Source: Escherichia virus TH25
Strand: one strand, 5' to 3'
Sequence record: MT446399.1
Length of the DNA stretch: 51,729 nucleotides
Positions 1-51,729 of the stretch are shown piece by piece. Under the pieces are notes generated by a model that saw only the letters and a program-made list of their open reading frames with translations, had not been told where the DNA came from and did not search any database. The translations under genes and the position numbers were made by a program. How positions within the stretch are numbered: position 1 is the stretch's first letter; each line of letters opens with the position of its first letter.

Positions 1-27
1 GGACCACTGTTCGAACAAATTCCGGCT

Positions 28-79
28 AGATACAGCTGACCGATTGTGAATGAATCTACGTCCAGATACAGTTGACCGA
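28..79. repeat. Imperfect direct repeat pair AGATACAG(C/T)TGACCGA (28-43 and 64-79)
   Basis: Two 16-bp copies differing at one position, spaced 36 bp apart, in ORF-free sequence downstream of nrdB. Confidence 0.4.
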
Positions 80-262
80 CCATTTACCATTTGGTTTTGA
101 ACTTTACGCATTCCTAATATTACTCTTAATATTGTAGCAATATTGGGAATAAGTAATATTGAAAACTTACTTATTTTATTCTAGCTCAAAGAGAAACGAC
201 GCTAACGCATCGAATCTCTTCTCACATATTAACTGACAAACGTCAGCCTTCACCATATCCAA

Positions 263-31430: not shown

Positions 31431-31676
31431 TTAAATTTCAATAATGTGAGAGTCAATGTCCAGGTCGGACAGGATAGATTGTGTTACTGCGAAATCTTCC
31501 GATTCCTTTAATGCTTTCAGGGCACTTTCGTAGGTAATATCGCCCTGATAATCACTTCCAAATAATGCCGAGGCGTGCATCTCAATTGCAGACACCGCCA
31601 GTTGTGTGGCCGGAATATCTCCAGCCGCTTGATGGAGTTCCATCTGTTGTTTGTCGTACAAGGCTAAAACACGCAT
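31431..31676 (-). CDS. Hypothetical protein
   Basis: 81-aa ORF; ATGA-type coupling with polymerase gene. Confidence 0.35.
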   Translation of the reverse strand: MRVLALYDKQQMELHQAAGDIPATQLAVSAIEMHASALFGSDYQGDITYESALKALKESEDFAVTQSILSDLDIDSHIIEI

Positions 31677-40408: not shown

Positions 40409-41046
40409 AGGAACTCTCCAATTTTCGATTCAGTGTTTGTGACTTCTCTTCTCATCTTTTGGCCCATGAAACAGGCCACAGGGTTGCGAAAATAGCCCTA
40501 TTTTAGGACTATAGCCAACCGTTTGTGTCAATTCTGGATAACTGCATTGGTGAAGGGTTACTCCCGTTAGGGTGCGGTACGCTAATCACATGAGTGTTGT
40601 CGCCTTACGGCTCAGGCGTGTCACAGAGGCTTTATAACCCTTCCCAATACATTCACCCAAATCCCAGCGTTGGCGTAGCTGGTGGCTTGGTTTTGTGCGG
40701 ATTATGCCACTCTAAGCCCTGTTTGTCCGACTTCCTCGGAGCACCAGCGGCTTGTGGCACAAACCTATTTTCGAATGACTAACATAAGCATGAGGCACAA
40801 CCCTCTAATTATTCAGCCCTAACAGCTTGCTTATTTAGTACCAATTCAACCCAATACATACACAACTATATACAATAGCGAACTATCTGCGAAAACTATC
40901 CGGCCCTATGGCCTAAGTTAAAGTTAATAGTGTGTGATGGAAACATTCCATCGAAAATAACTTTGTAGAATGAGTCGAACATTCTCGCACGTTATCGGCC
41001 GTAACGGTCTACCGAGTTACAAAGTTATTATCTGATGTTGTTTCTT

Positions 41047-41061
41047 CAATTCCAACTAATG
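41047..41061 (-). promoter_or_regulatory. Recurrent motif copy (+ strand CAATTCCAACTAATG)
   Basis: 15-bp motif family member in ORF-free region. Confidence 0.3.
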
Positions 41062-41181
41062 CCAATCTGTGCGACACACTCAGTCCAAGTTGTCCAGACT
41101 TGGTTGCTTAGGTCTGTGCTTATTGCAGTGGACTTCCTAGCAATTACTAATGACTAAGTATGTCGTCAGATTGACACTATT

Positions 41182-41196
41182 CAATTCCAACTAATG
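41182..41196 (-). promoter_or_regulatory. Recurrent motif copy (+ strand CAATTCCAACTAATG)
   Basis: 15-bp motif family member; followed by identical GTTTCAGA as the 41324 copy. Confidence 0.3.
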
Positions 41197-41267
41197 TTTC
41201 AGAATTATTCCAATATTCCAAACAAAAAAGAATAATAAGAATAAAATTAAATAAATGAAGAAAGTGC

Positions 41268-41297
41268 TTGACACCCATTTGGCGATAGGTGTATAAT
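41268..41297 (+). promoter_or_regulatory. Sigma70-type promoter candidate on the plus strand (TTGACA-18 bp-TATAAT with AT-rich upstream element)
   Basis: Consensus -35 at 41268-41273 and consensus -10 at 41292-41297, preceded by about 45 bp of A/T-rich sequence; oriented opposite to all genes. Confidence 0.4.
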
Positions 41298-41323
41298 GCC
41301 TTTCTTCCCTAAGAGGTCAGAAT

Positions 41324-41338
41324 CAAATCCCACTAATG
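41324..41338 (-). promoter_or_regulatory. Recurrent motif copy (+ strand CAAATCCCACTAATG)
   Basis: 15-bp motif family member. Confidence 0.3.
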
Positions 41339-41408
41339 TTTCAGACTAAAGCCGAAGGCCAATGCGAGCACAAAACCCGCTTGGCACTTCGAAGAAACCC
41401 GCCTGGAA

Positions 41409-47733: not shown

Positions 47734-47982
47734 TCAGAATCCTTTAGTGTACCCAACAGTTTTGCGCAGAATGATTTCATCATTTGAATCATCTGGCTCT
47801 AATTCGATTTCAATATTGACAACAATATTGTCGCTAAAAGTACATGCCTTACTTGAATCAAAGAACTTTACAGCATTATACTTATCTGACTCATTTACTT
47901 TAATCCACTTCACAGAACGAACAGTAAAGATTTGTCCATCTTGCAGGTCTTTAAAGTAAGCCGCTTTAGTAACAGTATCCAT
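47734..47982 (-). CDS. Hypothetical protein (first gene after repeat region)
   Basis: 82-aa ORF. Confidence 0.35.
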   Translation of the reverse strand: MDTVTKAAYFKDLQDGQIFTVRSVKWIKVNESDKYNAVKFFDSSKACTFSDNIVVNIEIELEPDDSNDEIILRKTVGYTKGF

Positions 47983-48268
47983 TTTTATTCTCCTAAGTTA
48001 AAAGAAAACTCCCGTCATAACGATTGTGGAGGTCTTGTGTTACCTTAATCCACCTTAAAGAATCAGGGAGTTACATATTAGTCTGTGTGTGCTGCTCTCG
48101 GTTACTTCCTAGTATTGCGAAGCTCTTGCACTCCCGCAAACCACACCTTTTGCACAGTCTATATGTGACACATTAAGTGCCGAAAACTACAATGATTAGC
48201 TTGGAGACATAATCTCTCTAAAATCTGTCACACAATTTCAGCAGAATTTACAGAGATTTGGTCTTATT

Positions 48269-48283
48269 CACATGCAACTAATG
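48269..48283 (-). promoter_or_regulatory. Recurrent motif copy (+ strand CACATGCAACTAATG)
   Basis: Motif family member about 290 bp upstream of gene start at 47982. Confidence 0.3.
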
Positions 48284-49183
48284 ATAAATGGACATGCTTA
48301 ATTGCAACCAATTCATCTGCCAAATAGACGAATTTAGTCACAATCAAACATGCTCATTAATTACAGGTTTGCTCCTATCTTGGAATGTATTTGGCACATC
48401 AAGAAGTGGCGCAATAGGTACGGAAAACCGACCATGTACAGCATAATAAAACTAATTAAATAAAGGGTTTTATCCCAATATTGTCACAATATTTACATGC
48501 GATGATAAAGCCTTCGCTTGGCTGGAAGCCAGTATTCATGCGGGTTGCAAGAATATTGGGTGAATATTGATACATTTATTACATGCGAAATTGGCACAAA
48601 TACTGTTACAAAATTAACATGCCGGATTGGTAGACAATTGTATCTTCGAGGTGATTAGTCCTCTAACAATTCTGCCACATTCTAACATGCCAATTTGTAG
48701 CAATATTTACATGCCATACTGTAGCAATATTGCCACAATATTTGTTGCTCAAAATCGGGGCGGCTTCTGCGTGAAAACGAGAGGCTTTGCTCCGACTCTT
48801 CTCTTCTTTCGAATTCTGATTGAAAGAAAGAAGCATGTCCAAAAGTTCCAGTCTTGCCAAAGTTATCTCCCGGCTTGTGGGTGGGCCTTGATAATAGGAG
48901 ATGGAGCAATATTGAAACAAGTGAACATGCTTAGGTTTGCTGACTTTCTTGTAACTTAATCAAGATGGCTAACACGATGTTCTGTTGTTAGTTCAGCACC
49001 GGAAGAACAGTTTCGAATGATAATCCTACTTCACACATGGTTGCTGGAACTTTGTCCGGCCAAAGACAGGGAGTTCAATGATTGCCACATCATTACAACG
49101 CTGTGTGTTTAGTTGACATGCTGAAATGTTTCTAGAATGATTTCAACATGACATGCGGAAGATTTCTCCGTATTCTGTTACTT

Positions 49184-49198
49184 CACATCCAACTAATG
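49184..49198 (-). promoter_or_regulatory. Recurrent motif copy (+ strand CACATCCAACTAATG)
   Basis: Consensus copy at right edge of repeat region. Confidence 0.3.
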
Positions 49199-49249
49199 TC
49201 GAATATCGGGACAATATCACATGCAGCAATATTGTCCGAATATTGGGAA

Positions 49250-49408
49250 TCAGTGTAGGGTAGGCTTAACTACATCGTAAACTTTATCACCATCTGTGAT
49301 ACATGCTTCATCATAGTTATAGCCAACTGCAAAGTCTCTTGCTTCTTGCAGTGTTGCAAACATACGAATGATTTCAAATTCAGTACTAGAAAGAATTAAA
49401 GTAAACAT
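49250..49408 (-). CDS. Small hypothetical protein
   Basis: Track ORF to 49465; ATG at 49408 has GGAG 9 nt upstream and lies 30 bp downstream of a motif copy. Confidence 0.35.
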   Translation of the reverse strand: MFTLILSSTEFEIIRMFATLQEARDFAVGYNYDEACITDGDKVYDVVKPTLH

Positions 49409-49437
49409 TATAAAAGTCTCCAATTGGTTATTAGATT

Positions 49438-49452
49438 CACATGCAACTAATG
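49438..49452 (-). promoter_or_regulatory. Recurrent motif copy (+ strand CACATGCAACTAATG)
   Basis: 30 bp upstream of ATG 49408. Confidence 0.35.
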
Positions 49453-49472
49453 CCATCCTTGGCACATAGTTG

Positions 49473-51413
49473 TTACTGGCAGAAGTAGTAAGCGTGTTCG
49501 CTCATCAGAAGTTCTTCTGTTACGATGTTCTCATGGTACATGTTGATGCCACCAAGTTGCTTGGACAGAGATTCAAACTGATTATTGTGAACAAAGATTT
49601 CAACATAAGCAGAACGAATAACTTCCATCATTTTAGGAGCATCAGCTAAGCAGCAACGGAAACAATCGTGAATTGAAGTGAAACCACGAAGACCAGCTTC
49701 TTTAGCTTTGACTGCAACAGTACGAGCAACCAATGCGTCAATACCTTGAATGTAGTTAACAACGAAGGTACGCTTGAATTCTTCTTTAGTTGGATTGGAC
49801 TCACGAATGGTCCAAGGCTTATTCTCCTGAATCTGACCAAAGATGACACGAGTTTGAGAGTCAACACGAATGCTGAACGCATCACAAACATCACGAGATG
49901 GGAAGCAAGGCTTCATTACAACCTGACCATCAGTGTGCTTATAGGTGATGTACTCTTTGTTGAGTTCAACACAACGGTTGTATGCAGCATCAGCAGCTTT
50001 CTCGATGAACATGTTAATCTTAGCACCCAATGCATTATGGATTGCTTCTACACAAAGTTCAGCAAATGCTTCTGCTTTCTCCATAGGAATCTGGAGCGCT
50101 TCTGTCATGTATGCGATGAAGTCAGAAGAACCAGTTAATGCAGCTTTACCACCACCATATTGGATAGCCATGTATGGAGTTTTGATAAACTTACGACCAG
50201 CTTTCGGATTCAAGAATTCATCCATAATTTCAGCGGATGGTTTCATTGAAGAACGGTCAAGCAACTTCAACAGTTCACGAAGAGATAACTGGTATGGGTC
50301 AGATGCTTTAGTCTCAGAATCAACCAGACCTGTTGCACGAGCCATCTCCATGTTACCAGCAATGAATGCCAGATATTGAGTACCAGAACATTTAGCATCT
50401 AAGCCAAAGCCTACACGAGAATCACACTCACCTGTAGTCTCAAACTTGAACCAATCCAGAGCTAATCGAACATAAGTGAATGGCTTAGAAGGACGCTCAC
50501 CTTTAGGCATGTTCAGCATACGAGCCAAAGAACCAGCAGGATTCTGTGCAACATAAGTTAAACGTTTAGCAGAAGTCCAGTCTCCACCAGCAATATCTTC
50601 CAGCTCAAGCATGAACATGTTGTATGCCAGAGTTGTAGAACCATCAGCATTAAACTTGCTCACAGTGTTCTCAACATTGTGGGAATACAGGCAACGAGCA
50701 AAGTCAGATGATTGTGGGTTAGGACCAGCACACGCTACGTGATACAGACGACCACGGTTATCAGCAAAGTAGTCAGAGAACAGAGTGTCCTGACCAACCA
50801 TTGCTACAGCATTGTTCCAAACATGGAGTTCAGTCTGGATTGCTTCTGGCATCTGCAAGCCACCAAATGTACGTTGTTCTAACATGGAAGAGATAACCTT
50901 AACCATTGTTGCATCGACGTGATATTCAGTATCTTGCAGGAATTCGATTGCAGCTTTCAGAGTCTTGGATGGCTTAACTTTGCCACCTTTAACGAAAGGC
51001 TTGCGACGAGATTCAGTTGTTACCTTCTCAGTGAATGGAACTGAGGTATCTTTGGTTGTAACCAGTTCAACCCATGCGTCAGTCATCTGGAACGATTTGT
51101 CCTCGTTCATGGTGATGAAACCGAAGTGTTTAGCCAGACCAATCAGGTTGATAGCTGGGTCAACATAGTGCATTGATTTCAAGTCGTTGTTGTAACGGTT
51201 GGCATCAGCAATAGAAGCAGAAGCCAGTTCAACCATCGAGATAGCCGGAATAACGTCATCACGCGTGAAAGACGTCATCATCTTGAATATGGCTAAGGCA
51301 GCAATAGCACAAGTCTGGGGCTGCATATAGTTCTGCTTCTCTTTGGCACGATATACCAGAGCGGTGATAGCAGGAACAACAGATTTGATAGTTTGAGTAG
51401 TGATAGTAGTCAT
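49473..51413 (-). CDS. Single-subunit DNA-dependent RNA polymerase (T7-like, compact)
   Basis: Blocks matching T7 RNAP: DNRGRLYHV (DWRGRVYAV), LDAKCSGTQY (DGSCSGIQH, motif A), YMAIQYGGGK (MTLAYGSKE, motif B), TSIHDCF (LIHDSFG, motif C); ATG at 51413 has GGAG 9 nt upstream; 646 aa. Confidence 0.8.
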   Translation of the reverse strand: MTTITTQTIKSVVPAITALVYRAKEKQNYMQPQTCAIAALAIFKMMTSFTRDDVIPAISMVELASASIADANRYNNDLKSMHYVDPAINLIGLAKHFGFITMNEDKSFQMTDAWVELVTTKDTSVPFTEKVTTESRRKPFVKGGKVKPSKTLKAAIEFLQDTEYHVDATMVKVISSMLEQRTFGGLQMPEAIQTELHVWNNAVAMVGQDTLFSDYFADNRGRLYHVACAGPNPQSSDFARCLYSHNVENTVSKFNADGSTTLAYNMFMLELEDIAGGDWTSAKRLTYVAQNPAGSLARMLNMPKGERPSKPFTYVRLALDWFKFETTGECDSRVGFGLDAKCSGTQYLAFIAGNMEMARATGLVDSETKASDPYQLSLRELLKLLDRSSMKPSAEIMDEFLNPKAGRKFIKTPYMAIQYGGGKAALTGSSDFIAYMTEALQIPMEKAEAFAELCVEAIHNALGAKINMFIEKAADAAYNRCVELNKEYITYKHTDGQVVMKPCFPSRDVCDAFSIRVDSQTRVIFGQIQENKPWTIRESNPTKEEFKRTFVVNYIQGIDALVARTVAVKAKEAGLRGFTSIHDCFRCCLADAPKMMEVIRSAYVEIFVHNNQFESLSKQLGGINMYHENIVTEELLMSEHAYYFCQ

Positions 51414-51481
51414 TTGTAAGTCTCCAAGATTGTGTATGATTTGAATGAAACGGATTATAATAGCGTAGCCATTACACAATT

Positions 51482-51496
51482 CACGTCCAACTAATA
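51482..51496 (-). promoter_or_regulatory. Recurrent motif copy (+ strand CACGTCCAACTAATA)
   Basis: 69 bp upstream of RNAP ATG; a TATAAT hexamer (minus strand, 51454-51459) lies between motif and gene. Confidence 0.35.
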
Positions 51497-51729
51497 TCAC
51501 AAACCTGTGCCATTGTTAGCACAGCACGGAGACTTTGACCTTGACTCATAAGCGAAGCGCCTAACTTGGTGTTGTTTGAAAGCCGATAGGCTGTAGAAAA
51601 AGTTGGGGTAGGGACCGTATTTAAGTCCGATAGGACGTTGGGCTTCCCCTCCCCGCCACCTCAAAAATAAAAATAATATTGCCACAATTCTAGTCTCATT
51701 AATATTGAAACAATTTGAGTCTCATTAAT

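What the first reader, a model, noticed from the sequence alone, without database searches (positions are those of the whole stretch)
48269..49249. About 1 kb ORF-free region packed with ACATGC and CAATATTG short repeats (candidate origin or regulatory hub)
Between the early gene block and the RNAP-proximal gene there are about 13 copies of ACATGC, mostly in the context TT(T/A)ACATGC(G/C), where well under one is expected by chance. There are also about 10 copies of the palindrome-like CAATATT(G), including the composite CAATATTTACATGC twice, and two promoter-motif copies. Near-identical AATATTGCCACAAT and AATATTGAAAC strings recur at 51672-51711 and at 120-175. Iteron-like arrays of this density usually mark a replication origin or a cluster of binding sites for a phage or host DNA-binding protein. 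ORFs called here on either strand (48627-48959, 48663-48920) lack ribosome-binding sites and look like artefacts of the repeats.
Basis: seen in the sequence. Interest (0 to 1): 0.6.

Follow-up and report, generated by a model that had tools for sequence, protein, structure and literature searches.

The report
Structured noncoding hub at terminal-repeat boundary
The "short repeats" are real, but they are mostly the paired arms of conserved hairpins in a roughly 1 kb untranslated stretch that every phage of this family carries just after its RNA polymerase gene, and in which the genome's long terminal repeat ends.

Summary
The window is a phiEcoM-GJ1-like phage genome (Chaseviridae, Carltongylesvirus), with all genes on the - strand. 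ACATGC occurs 12 times on the + strand in 48269-49249, against 0.23 expected (P=4e-17). CAATATT/AATATTG is also enriched. The two ORFs are broken in all six close relatives.

On the gene strand the hexamer is GCATGT. A strand-specific array of 9-13 copies sits in the same gap after the RNA polymerase gene in four other genera. More distant relatives carry GTATGA or GTGTGA arrays there. GCAUGU pairs with GCAUGU (G.U, C-G, A-U, U-A, G-C, U.G) and closes conserved hairpins. Three hairpins show compensatory changes across genera, and the sense strand folds better than the antisense strand.

The region is bracketed by phage-promoter-like motifs. By homology to five relatives, the right end of the ~2.8 kb direct terminal repeat lies at 48797/48798, in a variable spacer between two hairpin modules.

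Best reading: a family-wide structured noncoding RNA or leader, with sense-strand ssDNA as the alternative. Its invariant GCAUGU helices would be recognition sites. A dsDNA iteron origin is less likely. No Rfam family matches, and I found no description in the accessible literature. The function is untested.

The parts
49436..49452 (-). Phage-RNAP promoter-like motif CATTAGTTGCATGTGAA (P_A). It lies between the RNAP stop codon and the small ORF, and it holds one ACATGC copy.
   Evidence: the motif has 11 sites, all on the gene strand, against 0.5 expected.
49250..49409 (-). Small ORF (about 53 aa from the ATG at 49409), annotated as a hypothetical protein in relatives.
49202..49245 (.). Two AATATT-type palindrome-like sites (49202, 49228) flanking a GCATGT copy (49219-49224), directly upstream of P1.
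49182..49198 (-). Promoter-like motif P1 (CATTAGTTGGATGTGAA). Its equivalent in phiEcoM-GJ1 is annotated 'putative phage promoter 1'. It is conserved in 13 of the 14 aligned genomes.
49116..49156 (-). Hairpin A, formed between two GCATGT copies (49151, 49116). Its covariation support is weak.
49073..49099 (-). Small hairpin A2, with compensatory changes (for example AU:6/UA:5 and UA:10/CG:4).
   Evidence: pairs 253-258 with 270-275.
48831..48932 (-). Helix D. Its outer arms are AAGCAUGU... (48906-48932) and ...ACAUGCUU (48831-48857). They enclose an apical hairpin (48865-48902) with the invariant loop UAUUAUMAAGGCCCACCCACAAGCC.
   Evidence: (I1). In one search, 92.6% of cells are paired against 77.3% in shuffles, and the covariation score is 0.383 against 0.072 (0/500).
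48798..51624 (.). Inferred direct terminal repeat (2827 bp). It holds the RNAP gene, the small ORF, P_A, P1 and hairpins A to D. Its right end, at 48797/48798, lies inside the finding.
   Evidence: Mapped by homology from Mangalitsa, 4HA13 and Myduc (PhageTerm features) and from Y2 and PM1 (the repeat is duplicated in those records). It was not measured for this phage.
48764..48797 (.). Hypervariable spacer directly outside the end of the repeat. It is preceded, inside the repeat, by a purine-rich box (GAAAGAAGAGAAG).
48581..48714 (-). Extended hairpin B, with four GCATGT copies nested (48709 with 48581 enclosing 48685 with 48617). The core is 48617-48690 and has four helices.
   Evidence: 94.1% paired against 86.4% in shuffles, and 9 pairs with changes on both sides against 3.4 (0/500); nested closure appears in the minimum-energy folds of 4 of 5 genera; the spacing is conserved.
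48442..48500 (-). The best composite unit, GCATGT + A + the 17-bp perfect palindrome AATATTGTGACAATATT (48477-48500), followed by an AT-rich tract (48442-48481).
   Evidence: (D1). The AT-rich tract is the fifth least stable 40-mer of the genome (z=3.5).
48417..48433 (-). Small hairpin F (GGUCGGUUUUCCGUACC).
   Evidence: pairs 1080-1096 (GC:11, AU:2).
48292..48353 (-). Hairpin C: 62 nt with a stem of about 27 bp, closed by GCAUGU:GCAUGU (48348 and 48292). The 7-nt loop is AUUUGGC in 11 of 14 genomes (AAUUGGC or AAUCGGC in the others).
   Evidence: In one search, 92.9% of cells are paired against 52.5% in shuffles, 7 of 7 apical pairs change on both sides, and the score is 1.159 against 0.307 (0/500).
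48267..48283 (-). Promoter-like motif P2 (CATTAGTTGCATGTGAA). Its equivalent in phiEcoM-GJ1 is annotated 'putative phage promoter 2'. Its 3' part is itself a GCATGT.
48000..48071 (-). Terminator-like hairpin plus U-run, just upstream of the ribosome-binding site of the first early gene (ATG at 47982).
   Evidence: Read from the sequence and the alignment. The stem changes ACUCCC/GGGAGU to GCUCC/GGAGC in PM1.
51625..51729 (.). Left flank of the repeat (it continues at window 1-262). It holds AATATT-containing 26-bp repeats and a palindrome-like site about 45-60 bp outside the left boundary.

Best explanation
Window 48.0-49.25 kb is a conserved, untranslated and highly structured segment that all Chaseviridae carry just downstream of their single-subunit RNA polymerase gene.

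Proposed mechanism. It is read in the gene direction from phage-promoter-like sites (P_A at 49436, P1 at 49182). The transcript folds into a string of hairpin modules: A, A2, D, extended B, F and C. The ACATGC 'repeats' are GCAUGU on that transcript. Two GCAUGU copies pair antiparallel (G.U, C-G, A-U, U-A, G-C, U.G) and form the closing helix of the large hairpins. The AATATTG/TGTGACA elements form the adjoining helices. The closing helix never varies while neighbouring pairs covary. I therefore infer that it is recognised sequence-specifically as a symmetric duplex, most simply by a dimeric dsRNA-binding or processing protein (host RNase III or a phage protein). That would give multiple processing or binding sites ahead of P2 and the early genes. 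The right end of the ~2.8 kb direct terminal repeat falls in the variable spacer between modules D and B.

Shown: the enrichment, strand specificity and noncoding status; conservation across genera; covariation in three hairpins; the sense-over-antisense folding bias; the flanking promoter-like motifs.

Inferred: that the folded molecule is RNA rather than sense-strand ssDNA; that P1 is active; what binds the helix; and the position of the repeat end in this particular phage.
For: Identity of the phage.

Local strand-specific enrichment.

ORFs broken in relatives.

Array conserved on the gene strand: 4HA13 has 9 copies, Myduc 13, Y2 9 and PM1 10, with 0-3 ACATGC copies in each whole 6-kb locus and none in the gap. 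The copies are syntenic in a 14-genome alignment.

Distant relatives: the same 1.0-1.3 kb gap carries other sense-strand hexamers, GTATGA x7 and GTGTGA x8.

Covariation:
- Hairpin C: 92.9% paired against 52.5% in shuffles, 7 of 7 pairs changed on both sides, slid controls at or below 0.27.
- Hairpin B: 9 pairs changed on both sides against 3.4 expected, 0/500. The six GCAUGU:GCAUGU pairs are invariant in 9 of 9 sequences. Pair 19-65, inside TGTG[R]CA, reads AU:4, GC:4, CG:1.
- Hairpin D: score 0.383 against 0.072, 0/500.

Nested closure of extended hairpin B in 4 of 5 genera.

Folding: sense z=-8.0 against antisense -4.3 in the window, and -6.3 against -3.05 in 4HA13. In ZPAH14, VPs20 and Spp001 the sense strand is 20-44 kcal/mol more stable than the antisense strand. 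Coding controls give z -0.4 to -4.6, against -14.2 for the region with the same mononucleotide shuffle.

Promoter-like motif: 11 sites on the gene strand against 0.5 expected.
Against: - No transcript data exist for any Chaseviridae. The ICTV profile says the promoters of the family are unidentified.
- CATG is a palindrome and AATATTGTGACAATATT is a perfect palindrome, so part of the folding signal is automatic. The antisense strand also folds better than shuffles.
- The structures were derived from the same sequences on which the pairs were counted, and the set holds only about 9 distinct lineages.
- RNAalifold on the whole 1423-column alignment gave a weak consensus (-43 kcal/mol, covariation term -3.1).
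- An invariant hexamer could equally be a dsDNA protein site. Palindrome-like sites also occur on both flanks of the terminal repeat and upstream of P1, which a purely RNA reading does not explain.
- Several GCATGT copies (49219, 48495, 48270) have no assigned partner.
- Sense-strand ssDNA has the same sequence as the RNA and cannot be excluded.
Confidence: 0.5

Rival explanations
1. Concatemer-junction element. The arrays are cis-acting signals for making the terminal repeat and starting packaging. They would work either as sense-strand DNA hairpins exposed during strand-displacement copying of the repeat, or as pause or binding sites for the phage RNA polymerase next to the cut site. The model is phage T7, where a strand-specific class II pause site sits in the concatemer junction.
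For: - In five Cleopatravirinae genomes the repeat ends at homologous positions inside this gap, about 55-80 bp before the dense array.
- In the distant phage ZPAH14 the 3373-bp repeat ends inside its GTATGA array.
- AATATT/TGTGRCA repeats flank both ends of the repeat in all genera.
- A purine-rich box precedes both cut sites.
- The T7 repeat arrays SRL/SRR beside the terminal repeat are recalled from my own knowledge.
Against: - GCATGT occurs on one flank only.
- The T7 class II core ATCTGTT is absent from the region.
- G.T pairs are poor in DNA, yet the invariant closing helix has two of them.
- No experiment links the array to packaging.
- The repeat end lies in the least conserved spacer, which could simply be a tolerated place to cut.
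Confidence: 0.2
2. One reading: a replication origin or an array of dsDNA protein-binding sites. The composite 24-26-bp units (GCATGT plus a 17-bp palindrome) would be iterons or operators for a phage or host DNA-binding protein. The nearby AT-rich tract would be the unwinding element, and transcription from P_A/P1 would activate it, as at the T7 primary origin.
For: - A family of five composite units (D1), one holding a perfect 17-bp palindrome.
- The AT-rich tract 48442-48481 is the fifth least stable 40-mer of the genome.
- Position after the RNAP gene, with tandem phage-promoter-like sites. The resemblance to the T7 origin architecture is from my own knowledge.
- A T7-like primase-helicase and a family A polymerase are encoded.
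- The hexamer differs between subfamilies, as expected if the partner is phage-encoded.
Against: - Irregular spacing: 86, 36, 92 and 35 bp.
- No initiator or DNA-binding protein was recognised.
- Covariation between an 'operator' base and a partner about 45 nt away is not expected for dsDNA sites.
- The second half of the palindrome is lost in Myduc, while GCATGT and its pairing partners stay.
- DnaA-box and IHF matches are absent or not conserved.
- The gap at 40.4-41.4 kb fits a T7-style origin better.
Confidence: 0.15
3. A cluster of weak host sigma-70 promoters of the extended -10 type. GCATGT followed by (T/A)A..AT reads as TGn plus a -10-like hexamer. Such a cluster could load host RNA polymerase ahead of the early genes.
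For: - Several copies read TGTTAGAAT, TGTAATATT or TGTAAGAAT, with A at position 2 and T at position 6 of the hexamer.
- The T7 CJ and the artificial VSV class II terminators act as extended TGn promoters for E. coli polymerase.
Against: - The generic promoter scan found no excess: 7 sites against 6.5 +/- 2.9 expected, and only one on the gene strand.
- The invariant 'GCA' is not needed by sigma-70.
- The Shewanella-phage motif GTGTGA is not -10-like.
- This reading does not explain the covariation.
Confidence: 0.05

Closest known systems
RNase III processing hairpins in phage T7 polycistronic mRNAs (R0.3, R1.1 and others)
   Same: - Phage with a T7-type single-subunit RNA polymerase and genes all on one strand.
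- Long hairpins (stems of about 20-27 bp) in untranslated transcript segments.
- Hairpins that share sequence features with one another.
   Different: - Here the hairpins are clustered in one ~1 kb gene-free block instead of lying between genes.
- They are closed by an invariant symmetric GCAUGU:GCAUGU helix.
- No cleavage data exist.
- The comparison rests on my own knowledge of T7 and was not tested.
T7 concatemer-junction region (class II pause site CJ and the SRL/SRR repeat arrays next to the terminal repeat)
   Same: - Short strand-specific elements immediately inside the unique DNA next to a direct terminal repeat.
- A phage that encodes its own RNA polymerase.
- Noncoding DNA between the repeat and the first early genes (for CJ).
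   Different: - The repeat is about 2.8 kb and contains the RNAP gene, against 160 bp in T7.
- The motif is different, and ATCTGTT is absent.
- The elements here form covarying hairpins, whereas class II sites are thought to act without secondary structure.
Iteron-type and T7-type replication origins
   Same: - Direct repeats.
- An AT-rich tract.
- Nearby promoters.
- Position after the RNAP gene.
   Different: - Irregular spacing.
- No recognisable initiator.
- The repeats pair with each other, with covariation and G.U pairs.
- A rival AT-rich, tandem-promoter locus at 40.4-41.4 kb.
Large structured noncoding RNAs of phages and bacteria with unknown or recently found roles (GOLLD, ROOL, OLE) and phi29 pRNA
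   Same: - Hundreds of nucleotides of conserved multi-hairpin structure without coding capacity.
- Encoded by a phage. In the case of pRNA, encoded near a genome end.
   Different: - No sequence or structure match to any Rfam family.
- A transcript has not been demonstrated.
- The comparison is by general kind only.
T5 injection-stop-signal region at the inner edge of its long terminal repeat
   Same: A complex noncoding set of repeats and inverted repeats at the inner edge of a long direct terminal repeat that carries the first-expressed genes. This is from my own knowledge.
   Different: - In T5 the region lies inside the repeat and contains DnaA boxes.
- Here most of it lies outside the repeat, and conserved DnaA boxes are lacking.
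- Two-step DNA entry is not known for Chaseviridae.

Membership tests
Iteron-type replication origin | Three or more direct repeats of about 17-22 bp, in helical phase | tested here: inconclusive
   There are five composite units of about 26 nt at 69-100% identity, but their spacing is 86, 36, 92 and 35 bp.
Iteron-type replication origin | Adjacent AT-rich unwinding element | tested here: met
   48442-48481 is the fifth least stable 40-mer of the genome (z=3.5). It is not the least stable: 41203-41262 ranks first at 60 and 100 bp.
Iteron-type replication origin | A cognate initiator protein is encoded | tested here: not met
   No Rep/O-like or helix-turn-helix protein was recognised among the 30 proteins scanned against PHROGs or the 10 scanned against Pfam. 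Many small early proteins have no known function, so absence is not proven.
T7-type primary origin | Tandem phage promoters followed closely by an AT-rich tract, downstream of the RNAP gene | tested here: inconclusive
   P_A and P1 follow the RNAP gene, but the AT-rich tract lies about 700 nt further on. The gap at 40.4-41.4 kb has three tandem sites next to the most AT-rich DNA. Origin activity cannot be tested here.
T7 class II pause/termination site | Seven-base conserved core (ATCTGTT) on the non-template strand | tested here: not met
   There is no ATCTGTT in 47900-49500 on either strand.
Any described RNA family (Rfam 15) | A covariance-model match at the gathering score | tested here: not met
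   There are 0 matches in the whole window. In the region the only hit is a chance miRNA-hairpin match at E=0.94.
Structured noncoding RNA (general) | Base pairs kept through compensatory changes in related sequences | tested here: met
   Hairpins C, B and D. All exceed both the shuffled and the slid controls.
Structured noncoding RNA (general) | The segment is transcribed | not testable with these tools
   Promoter-like motifs lie upstream on the same strand. No transcriptome for this family was found.
Protein-coding gene | An open frame conserved in relatives, with substitutions favouring third codon positions | tested here: not met
   Stop codons or frameshifts occur in all six relatives. 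Substitutions are spread 17:17:19 and 18:15:14 over codon positions.
Sigma-70 promoter cluster | An excess of -35/-10 matches on the gene strand | tested here: not met
   7 sites were found against 6.5 +/- 2.9 expected, and only one is on the - strand.
Direct-terminal-repeat boundary (Chaseviridae) | The repeat end maps inside the region | tested here: met
   By homology only. The boundaries of Mangalitsa, 4HA13, Myduc, Y2 and PM1 align within about 15 nt, at window 48797/48798 and 51624/51625. PYps23T reports a different repeat of 2339 bp.

The most novel reading that the evidence does not exclude
Chaseviridae encode a previously undescribed large (about 0.9-1.2 kb) structured noncoding RNA, built from hairpins closed by an invariant self-pairing hexamer. 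The hexamer is GCAUGU in one subfamily and GUAUGA or GUGUGA in more distant relatives, so it would co-evolve with a phage factor. This RNA, or its transcription, would take part in forming the long terminal repeat or in packaging. Alternatively it would act as a multi-site decoy for a host or phage protein. A second structured ~1 kb noncoding region at 40.4-41.4 kb could be a sister element.
Probability: 0.2. Interest if true: 0.8.

Novelty: new variant of a known kind. Interest (0 to 1): 0.6.

Why it matters
About 2% of the genome of every member of this phage family is spent on a gene-free block that is better conserved than many of its proteins. Records either leave it blank or fill it with spurious small ORFs. 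I found no description of it in the accessible literature.

If the hairpin reading is right, three things follow:
- It gives a concrete, testable set of elements: hairpins B, C and D, the GCAUGU helix, and the promoters P1 and P2. These bear on two open points for the family, namely what its T7-like polymerase recognises (said to be unidentified in the 2022 ICTV profile) and how its unusually long terminal repeat, which carries the polymerase gene itself, is delimited.
- It warns annotators not to call ORFs in this block.
- These phages are candidates for phage therapy and biocontrol (E. coli, Erwinia, Pectobacterium, Aeromonas). Essential cis-elements matter when engineering them.

Tried and rejected
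- tRNA and Rfam scans found nothing.
- Coding capacity of the two ORFs: rejected.
- Generic sigma-70 promoter and terminator scan: no excess.
- DnaA, IHF and T7 class II motifs: absent or not conserved.
- The idea that GCATGT is just the 3' half of the phage promoter: rejected. In Myduc and 4HA13 the promoter-like sites have GAGTGT or GAAATT there, while the array keeps GCATGT.
- A DNA-binding or initiator protein among 30 proteins scanned against PHROGs and 10 against Pfam: none recognised.
- The composite motif outside the family: an IMG/VR scan gave 68 loci, and only Chaseviridae-type contigs carry arrays.
- Promoter discovery in the distant phage ZPAH14, to test co-variation of hexamer and promoter: it gave only a hairpin motif, GGCTC-TTCG-GAGCC-AAAAGA, so it was inconclusive.
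- NrdR, Fur, LacI, Tus-Ter and sigma-54 resemblances, considered from memory: spacing or key bases do not fit, and they were not pursued.
- Whole-region RNAalifold on the MAFFT alignment: weak. Block-wise RNAalifold on helix D and block E failed because of alignment shifts. Helices were then defined by hand and tested separately.
It was replaced by the strand folding and by mononucleotide shuffles.
- The phiEcoM-GJ1 and Y2 genome papers are not in the held library. I cannot exclude that they mention the repeats.
Full report
WHAT THE WINDOW IS. The 51.7 kb window is a complete or near-complete genome of a phiEcoM-GJ1-like myovirus (family Chaseviridae, genus Carltongylesvirus). It is presented as the reverse complement of the GenBank convention, so essentially all genes lie on the - strand. 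[quoted passage not shown] The finding covers the gene-free stretch between that gene (plus a small ORF at 49250-49409) and the first small early gene, whose ATG is at 47982.

THE OBSERVATION. It is correct.
- ACATGC occurs 37 times in the genome, which is what chance gives. But 12 copies lie on the + strand inside 48269-49249, plus one on the - strand.
- The expectation is 0.23 per strand (Poisson P=4e-17). Markov simulations of the region never exceeded 5 copies. No other kilobase of the genome has more than 3 same-strand copies.
- CAATATT is enriched genome-wide (36 against 10) and locally.
- The composite CAATATTTACATGC occurs twice. The promoter-motif copies and the recurrences at the window ends are all there.
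Substitutions are spread evenly over codon positions. The stretch is noncoding.

THE SURROUNDINGS.
- The motif CATTAGTTGGATGTGAA occurs 11 times, always on the gene strand, against 0.5 expected. The nine best copies sit in intergenic DNA upstream of genes. Two of them (49182, 48267) correspond to sites annotated 'putative phage promoter 1/2' in the phiEcoM-GJ1 record. The 2022 ICTV profile nevertheless states that the promoters of the family are not identified. Two ACATGC copies (48270, 49439) are simply promoter variants with GCATGT in place of GGATGT.
- The family has direct terminal repeats of about 3 kb. The ends annotated by PhageTerm in Mangalitsa, 4HA13 and Myduc, and the ends implied by the duplicated termini in the Y2 and PM1 records, all fall at homologous positions. 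Mapped to the window, the repeat is 48798-51624.
- The repeat therefore holds the RNAP gene, the small ORF, P_A and P1. It ends inside the finding, in a short hypervariable spacer (48764-48797) that follows a purine-rich box. A similar purine-rich box precedes the left cut site.
- One report (PYps23T, 2339 bp) places both ends inside copies of the promoter-like motif. I regard that as unresolved.

COMPARATIVE EVIDENCE.
- Every Chaseviridae genome examined has an unannotated, or spuriously annotated, gap of 1.0-1.35 kb after the RNAP gene.
- In four other genera of the subfamily Cleopatravirinae the gap holds 9-13 copies of GCATGT on the gene strand and none of its complement. The copies sit at syntenic positions with conserved spacing, although the RNAP proteins are only 66-77% identical.
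- In more distant relatives the same gap carries other gene-strand hexamers: GTATGA x7 in an Aeromonas and a Vibrio phage, GTGTGA x8 in a Shewanella phage. In the Aeromonas phage ZPAH14 the 3373-bp repeat ends inside that array.
- A scan of 2.9 million viral contigs found such arrays only in Chaseviridae-type contigs.
- The array is therefore a conserved, lineage-specific and strand-specific feature.

WHAT THE REPEATS ARE. At first the units looked like composite protein sites: GCATGT, one base, then the perfect 17-bp palindrome AATATTGTGACAATATT. Folding changed that view.
- The 898-nt sense strand between P1 and P2 folds far better than shuffles (z=-8.0) and better than its antisense strand (z=-4.3). 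The same holds in 4HA13 (-6.3 against -3.05).
- In the three distant relatives examined (ZPAH14, VPs20, Spp001) the sense strand is 20-44 kcal/mol more stable than the antisense strand.
- Coding controls from the same genome give z of -0.4 to -4.6, against -14.2 for the region under the same mononucleotide shuffle.
- GCAUGU can pair antiparallel with another GCAUGU: a CAUG core flanked by two G.U pairs, which become A.C mismatches on the other strand.

This pairing closes several conserved hairpins.
- Hairpin C (48292-48353) has a stem of about 27 bp and a 7-nt loop that reads AUUUGGC in 11 of the 14 genomes and AAUUGGC or AAUCGGC in the rest. Its apical seven pairs all change on both sides among ten lineages. 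92.9% of cells are paired against 52.5% in shuffles, and the slid controls reach at most 0.27 against 1.16.
- Hairpin B (core 48617-48690) has four helices. Nine pairs have compensatory changes against 3.4 expected (0/500). The six closing GCAUGU:GCAUGU pairs are invariant. A pair inside the supposed protein half-site TGTG[R]CA reads AU:4, GC:4, CG:1.
- Two further GCATGT copies (48709, 48581) nest around hairpin B. They close an extended ~150-nt hairpin in the minimum-energy folds of 4 of 5 genera.
- Helix D (48831-48932) pairs AAGCAUGU with the single opposite-strand copy ACAUGCUU. It encloses an apical hairpin with covarying pairs and a 25-nt invariant loop.
- Smaller hairpins (A2, F) also show compensatory changes.
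- No Rfam family matches.

MOST LIKELY MECHANISM. I commit to the following, at about 0.5. The block is transcribed in the gene direction from P_A and P1, and it folds into these modules. The invariant symmetric GCAUGU helices are read by a protein, most simply a dimeric dsRNA-binding or processing enzyme. This would give several processing or binding sites upstream of P2 and the early genes. The steps shown are the enrichment, conservation, covariation, strand bias and promoter-like motifs. The steps inferred are transcription, RNA rather than sense ssDNA, and the partner. The end of the terminal repeat lies in the spacer between modules D and B. That may be functional, or merely a tolerated place to cut.

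RIVALS.
(i) A concatemer-junction or packaging element (about 0.2).
- For: the repeat ends here in six genomes. AATATT/TGTGRCA repeats flank both ends of the repeat. T7 offers a precedent, a strand-specific polymerase pause site in its concatemer junction.
- Against: GCATGT is on one flank only, the T7 core motif is absent, and G.T pairs are poor in DNA.
- For: composite repeats, an AT-rich tract and the T7-like position.
- Against: the spacing is irregular. No initiator was recognised. Covariation with distant partners is not a property of dsDNA sites. The gap at 40.4-41.4 kb, with three tandem promoter-like sites and the most AT-rich DNA of the genome, fits a T7-type origin better.
(iii) A cluster of extended -10 host promoters (about 0.05). 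Some copies read TGnTAnnnT, but there is no statistical excess, and this reading explains neither the invariant GCA nor the covariation.
These readings are not mutually exclusive.

CAVEATS.
- The covariation set holds only about nine independent lineages.
- The structures were derived from the same sequences on which they were tested.
- Palindromic motifs inflate the folding z-scores.
- The whole-region consensus fold is weak because the alignment is gappy.
- The two founding genome papers could not be read.
- There are no transcript, probing or end-mapping data for this phage.

NOVELTY AND VERDICT. The best description is a previously uncharacterised, family-wide structured noncoding region at the inner boundary of the terminal repeat. 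I rate it a new variant of a known kind, with interest 0.6.

Noticed in passing
window 40409-41408 (- strand): A second ~1 kb ORF-free gap. It holds three tandem promoter-like sites (41322, 41180, 41045) and the least stable 60- and 100-bp stretches of the genome (41203-41262). As RNA it has a very strong folding signal (z=-9.0). It is conserved, and mostly unannotated, across Carltongylesvirus. It is a candidate T7-style origin, a second structured RNA, or both.
   Followed up: partly
window 51480, 49436, 49182, 48267, 45273, 41322, 41180, 41045, 39078 (plus weaker sites at 31551 and 24839), all on the - strand: The motif CATTAGTTGGATGTGAA occurs 11 times on the gene strand only, against 0.5 expected. 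The best nine copies are intergenic and upstream of genes. It loosely resembles the SP6 promoter. The ICTV profile says the promoters of this family are not yet identified.
   Followed up: partly
whole window: GATC is almost absent. There are 2 strand-counts, which is a single palindromic site in 51.7 kb, where about 200 would be expected.
   Followed up: no
L004/L005 (Yersinia phage PYps23T); window 51485 and 49188: The published 2339-bp terminal repeat of PYps23T begins and ends inside two copies of the promoter-like motif. This differs from the boundaries of five other genomes. It may be a real alternative or an effect of the shared 16-bp motif on the PCR and sequencing assay.
   Followed up: partly
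window 51625-51729 plus 1-262, and the equivalent flanks in L010, L011, L012, L016 and L017: The left flank of the terminal repeat carries 26-bp direct repeats (AATATT-AATGAGACT..AATTGT..C). It also carries one or two copies of GGTCGGTCAACTGTA. Both are conserved in kind across genera.
   Followed up: partly
window about 48798-48815 and 51630-51660; relatives: Both cut sites of the terminal repeat are preceded by a purine-rich box (GRAGRGRG-like), within about 0-25 nt. This could be a shared terminase recognition element.
   Followed up: no
L013+L019 (Aeromonas phage ZPAH14): 2794, 2914, 3507, 4719, 6796, 9190: A hairpin motif, GGCTC-TTCG-GAGCC followed by AAAAGA, recurs at six intergenic sites of the early region. 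Its function is unknown.
   Followed up: no
window 48935-49001 and 48092-48160: There is a 67-bp segment present here and in phiEcoM-GJ1 but absent from Mangalitsa, SA91KD, PYps23T, ST32 and flopper. There is also a ~70-nt insertion in the P2 leader, not present in the six other genomes aligned there (GJ1, Mangalitsa, 4HA13, Myduc, Y2, PM1). The noncoding block tolerates modular indels between hairpins.
   Followed up: no
GenBank PP952070.1: A record labelled 'Staphylococcus phage Pel53' (host S. hyicus) is about 89% identical to this coliphage region, and its RNAP is 98.8% identical. The host assignment looks doubtful.
   Followed up: no
window 48000-48071 (- strand): A conserved terminator-like hairpin with a U-run lies between P2 and the ribosome-binding site of the first early gene. 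PM1 shows a compensatory stem change. It could be an attenuator, a terminator for the structured RNA, or a 5' stabiliser.
   Followed up: partly
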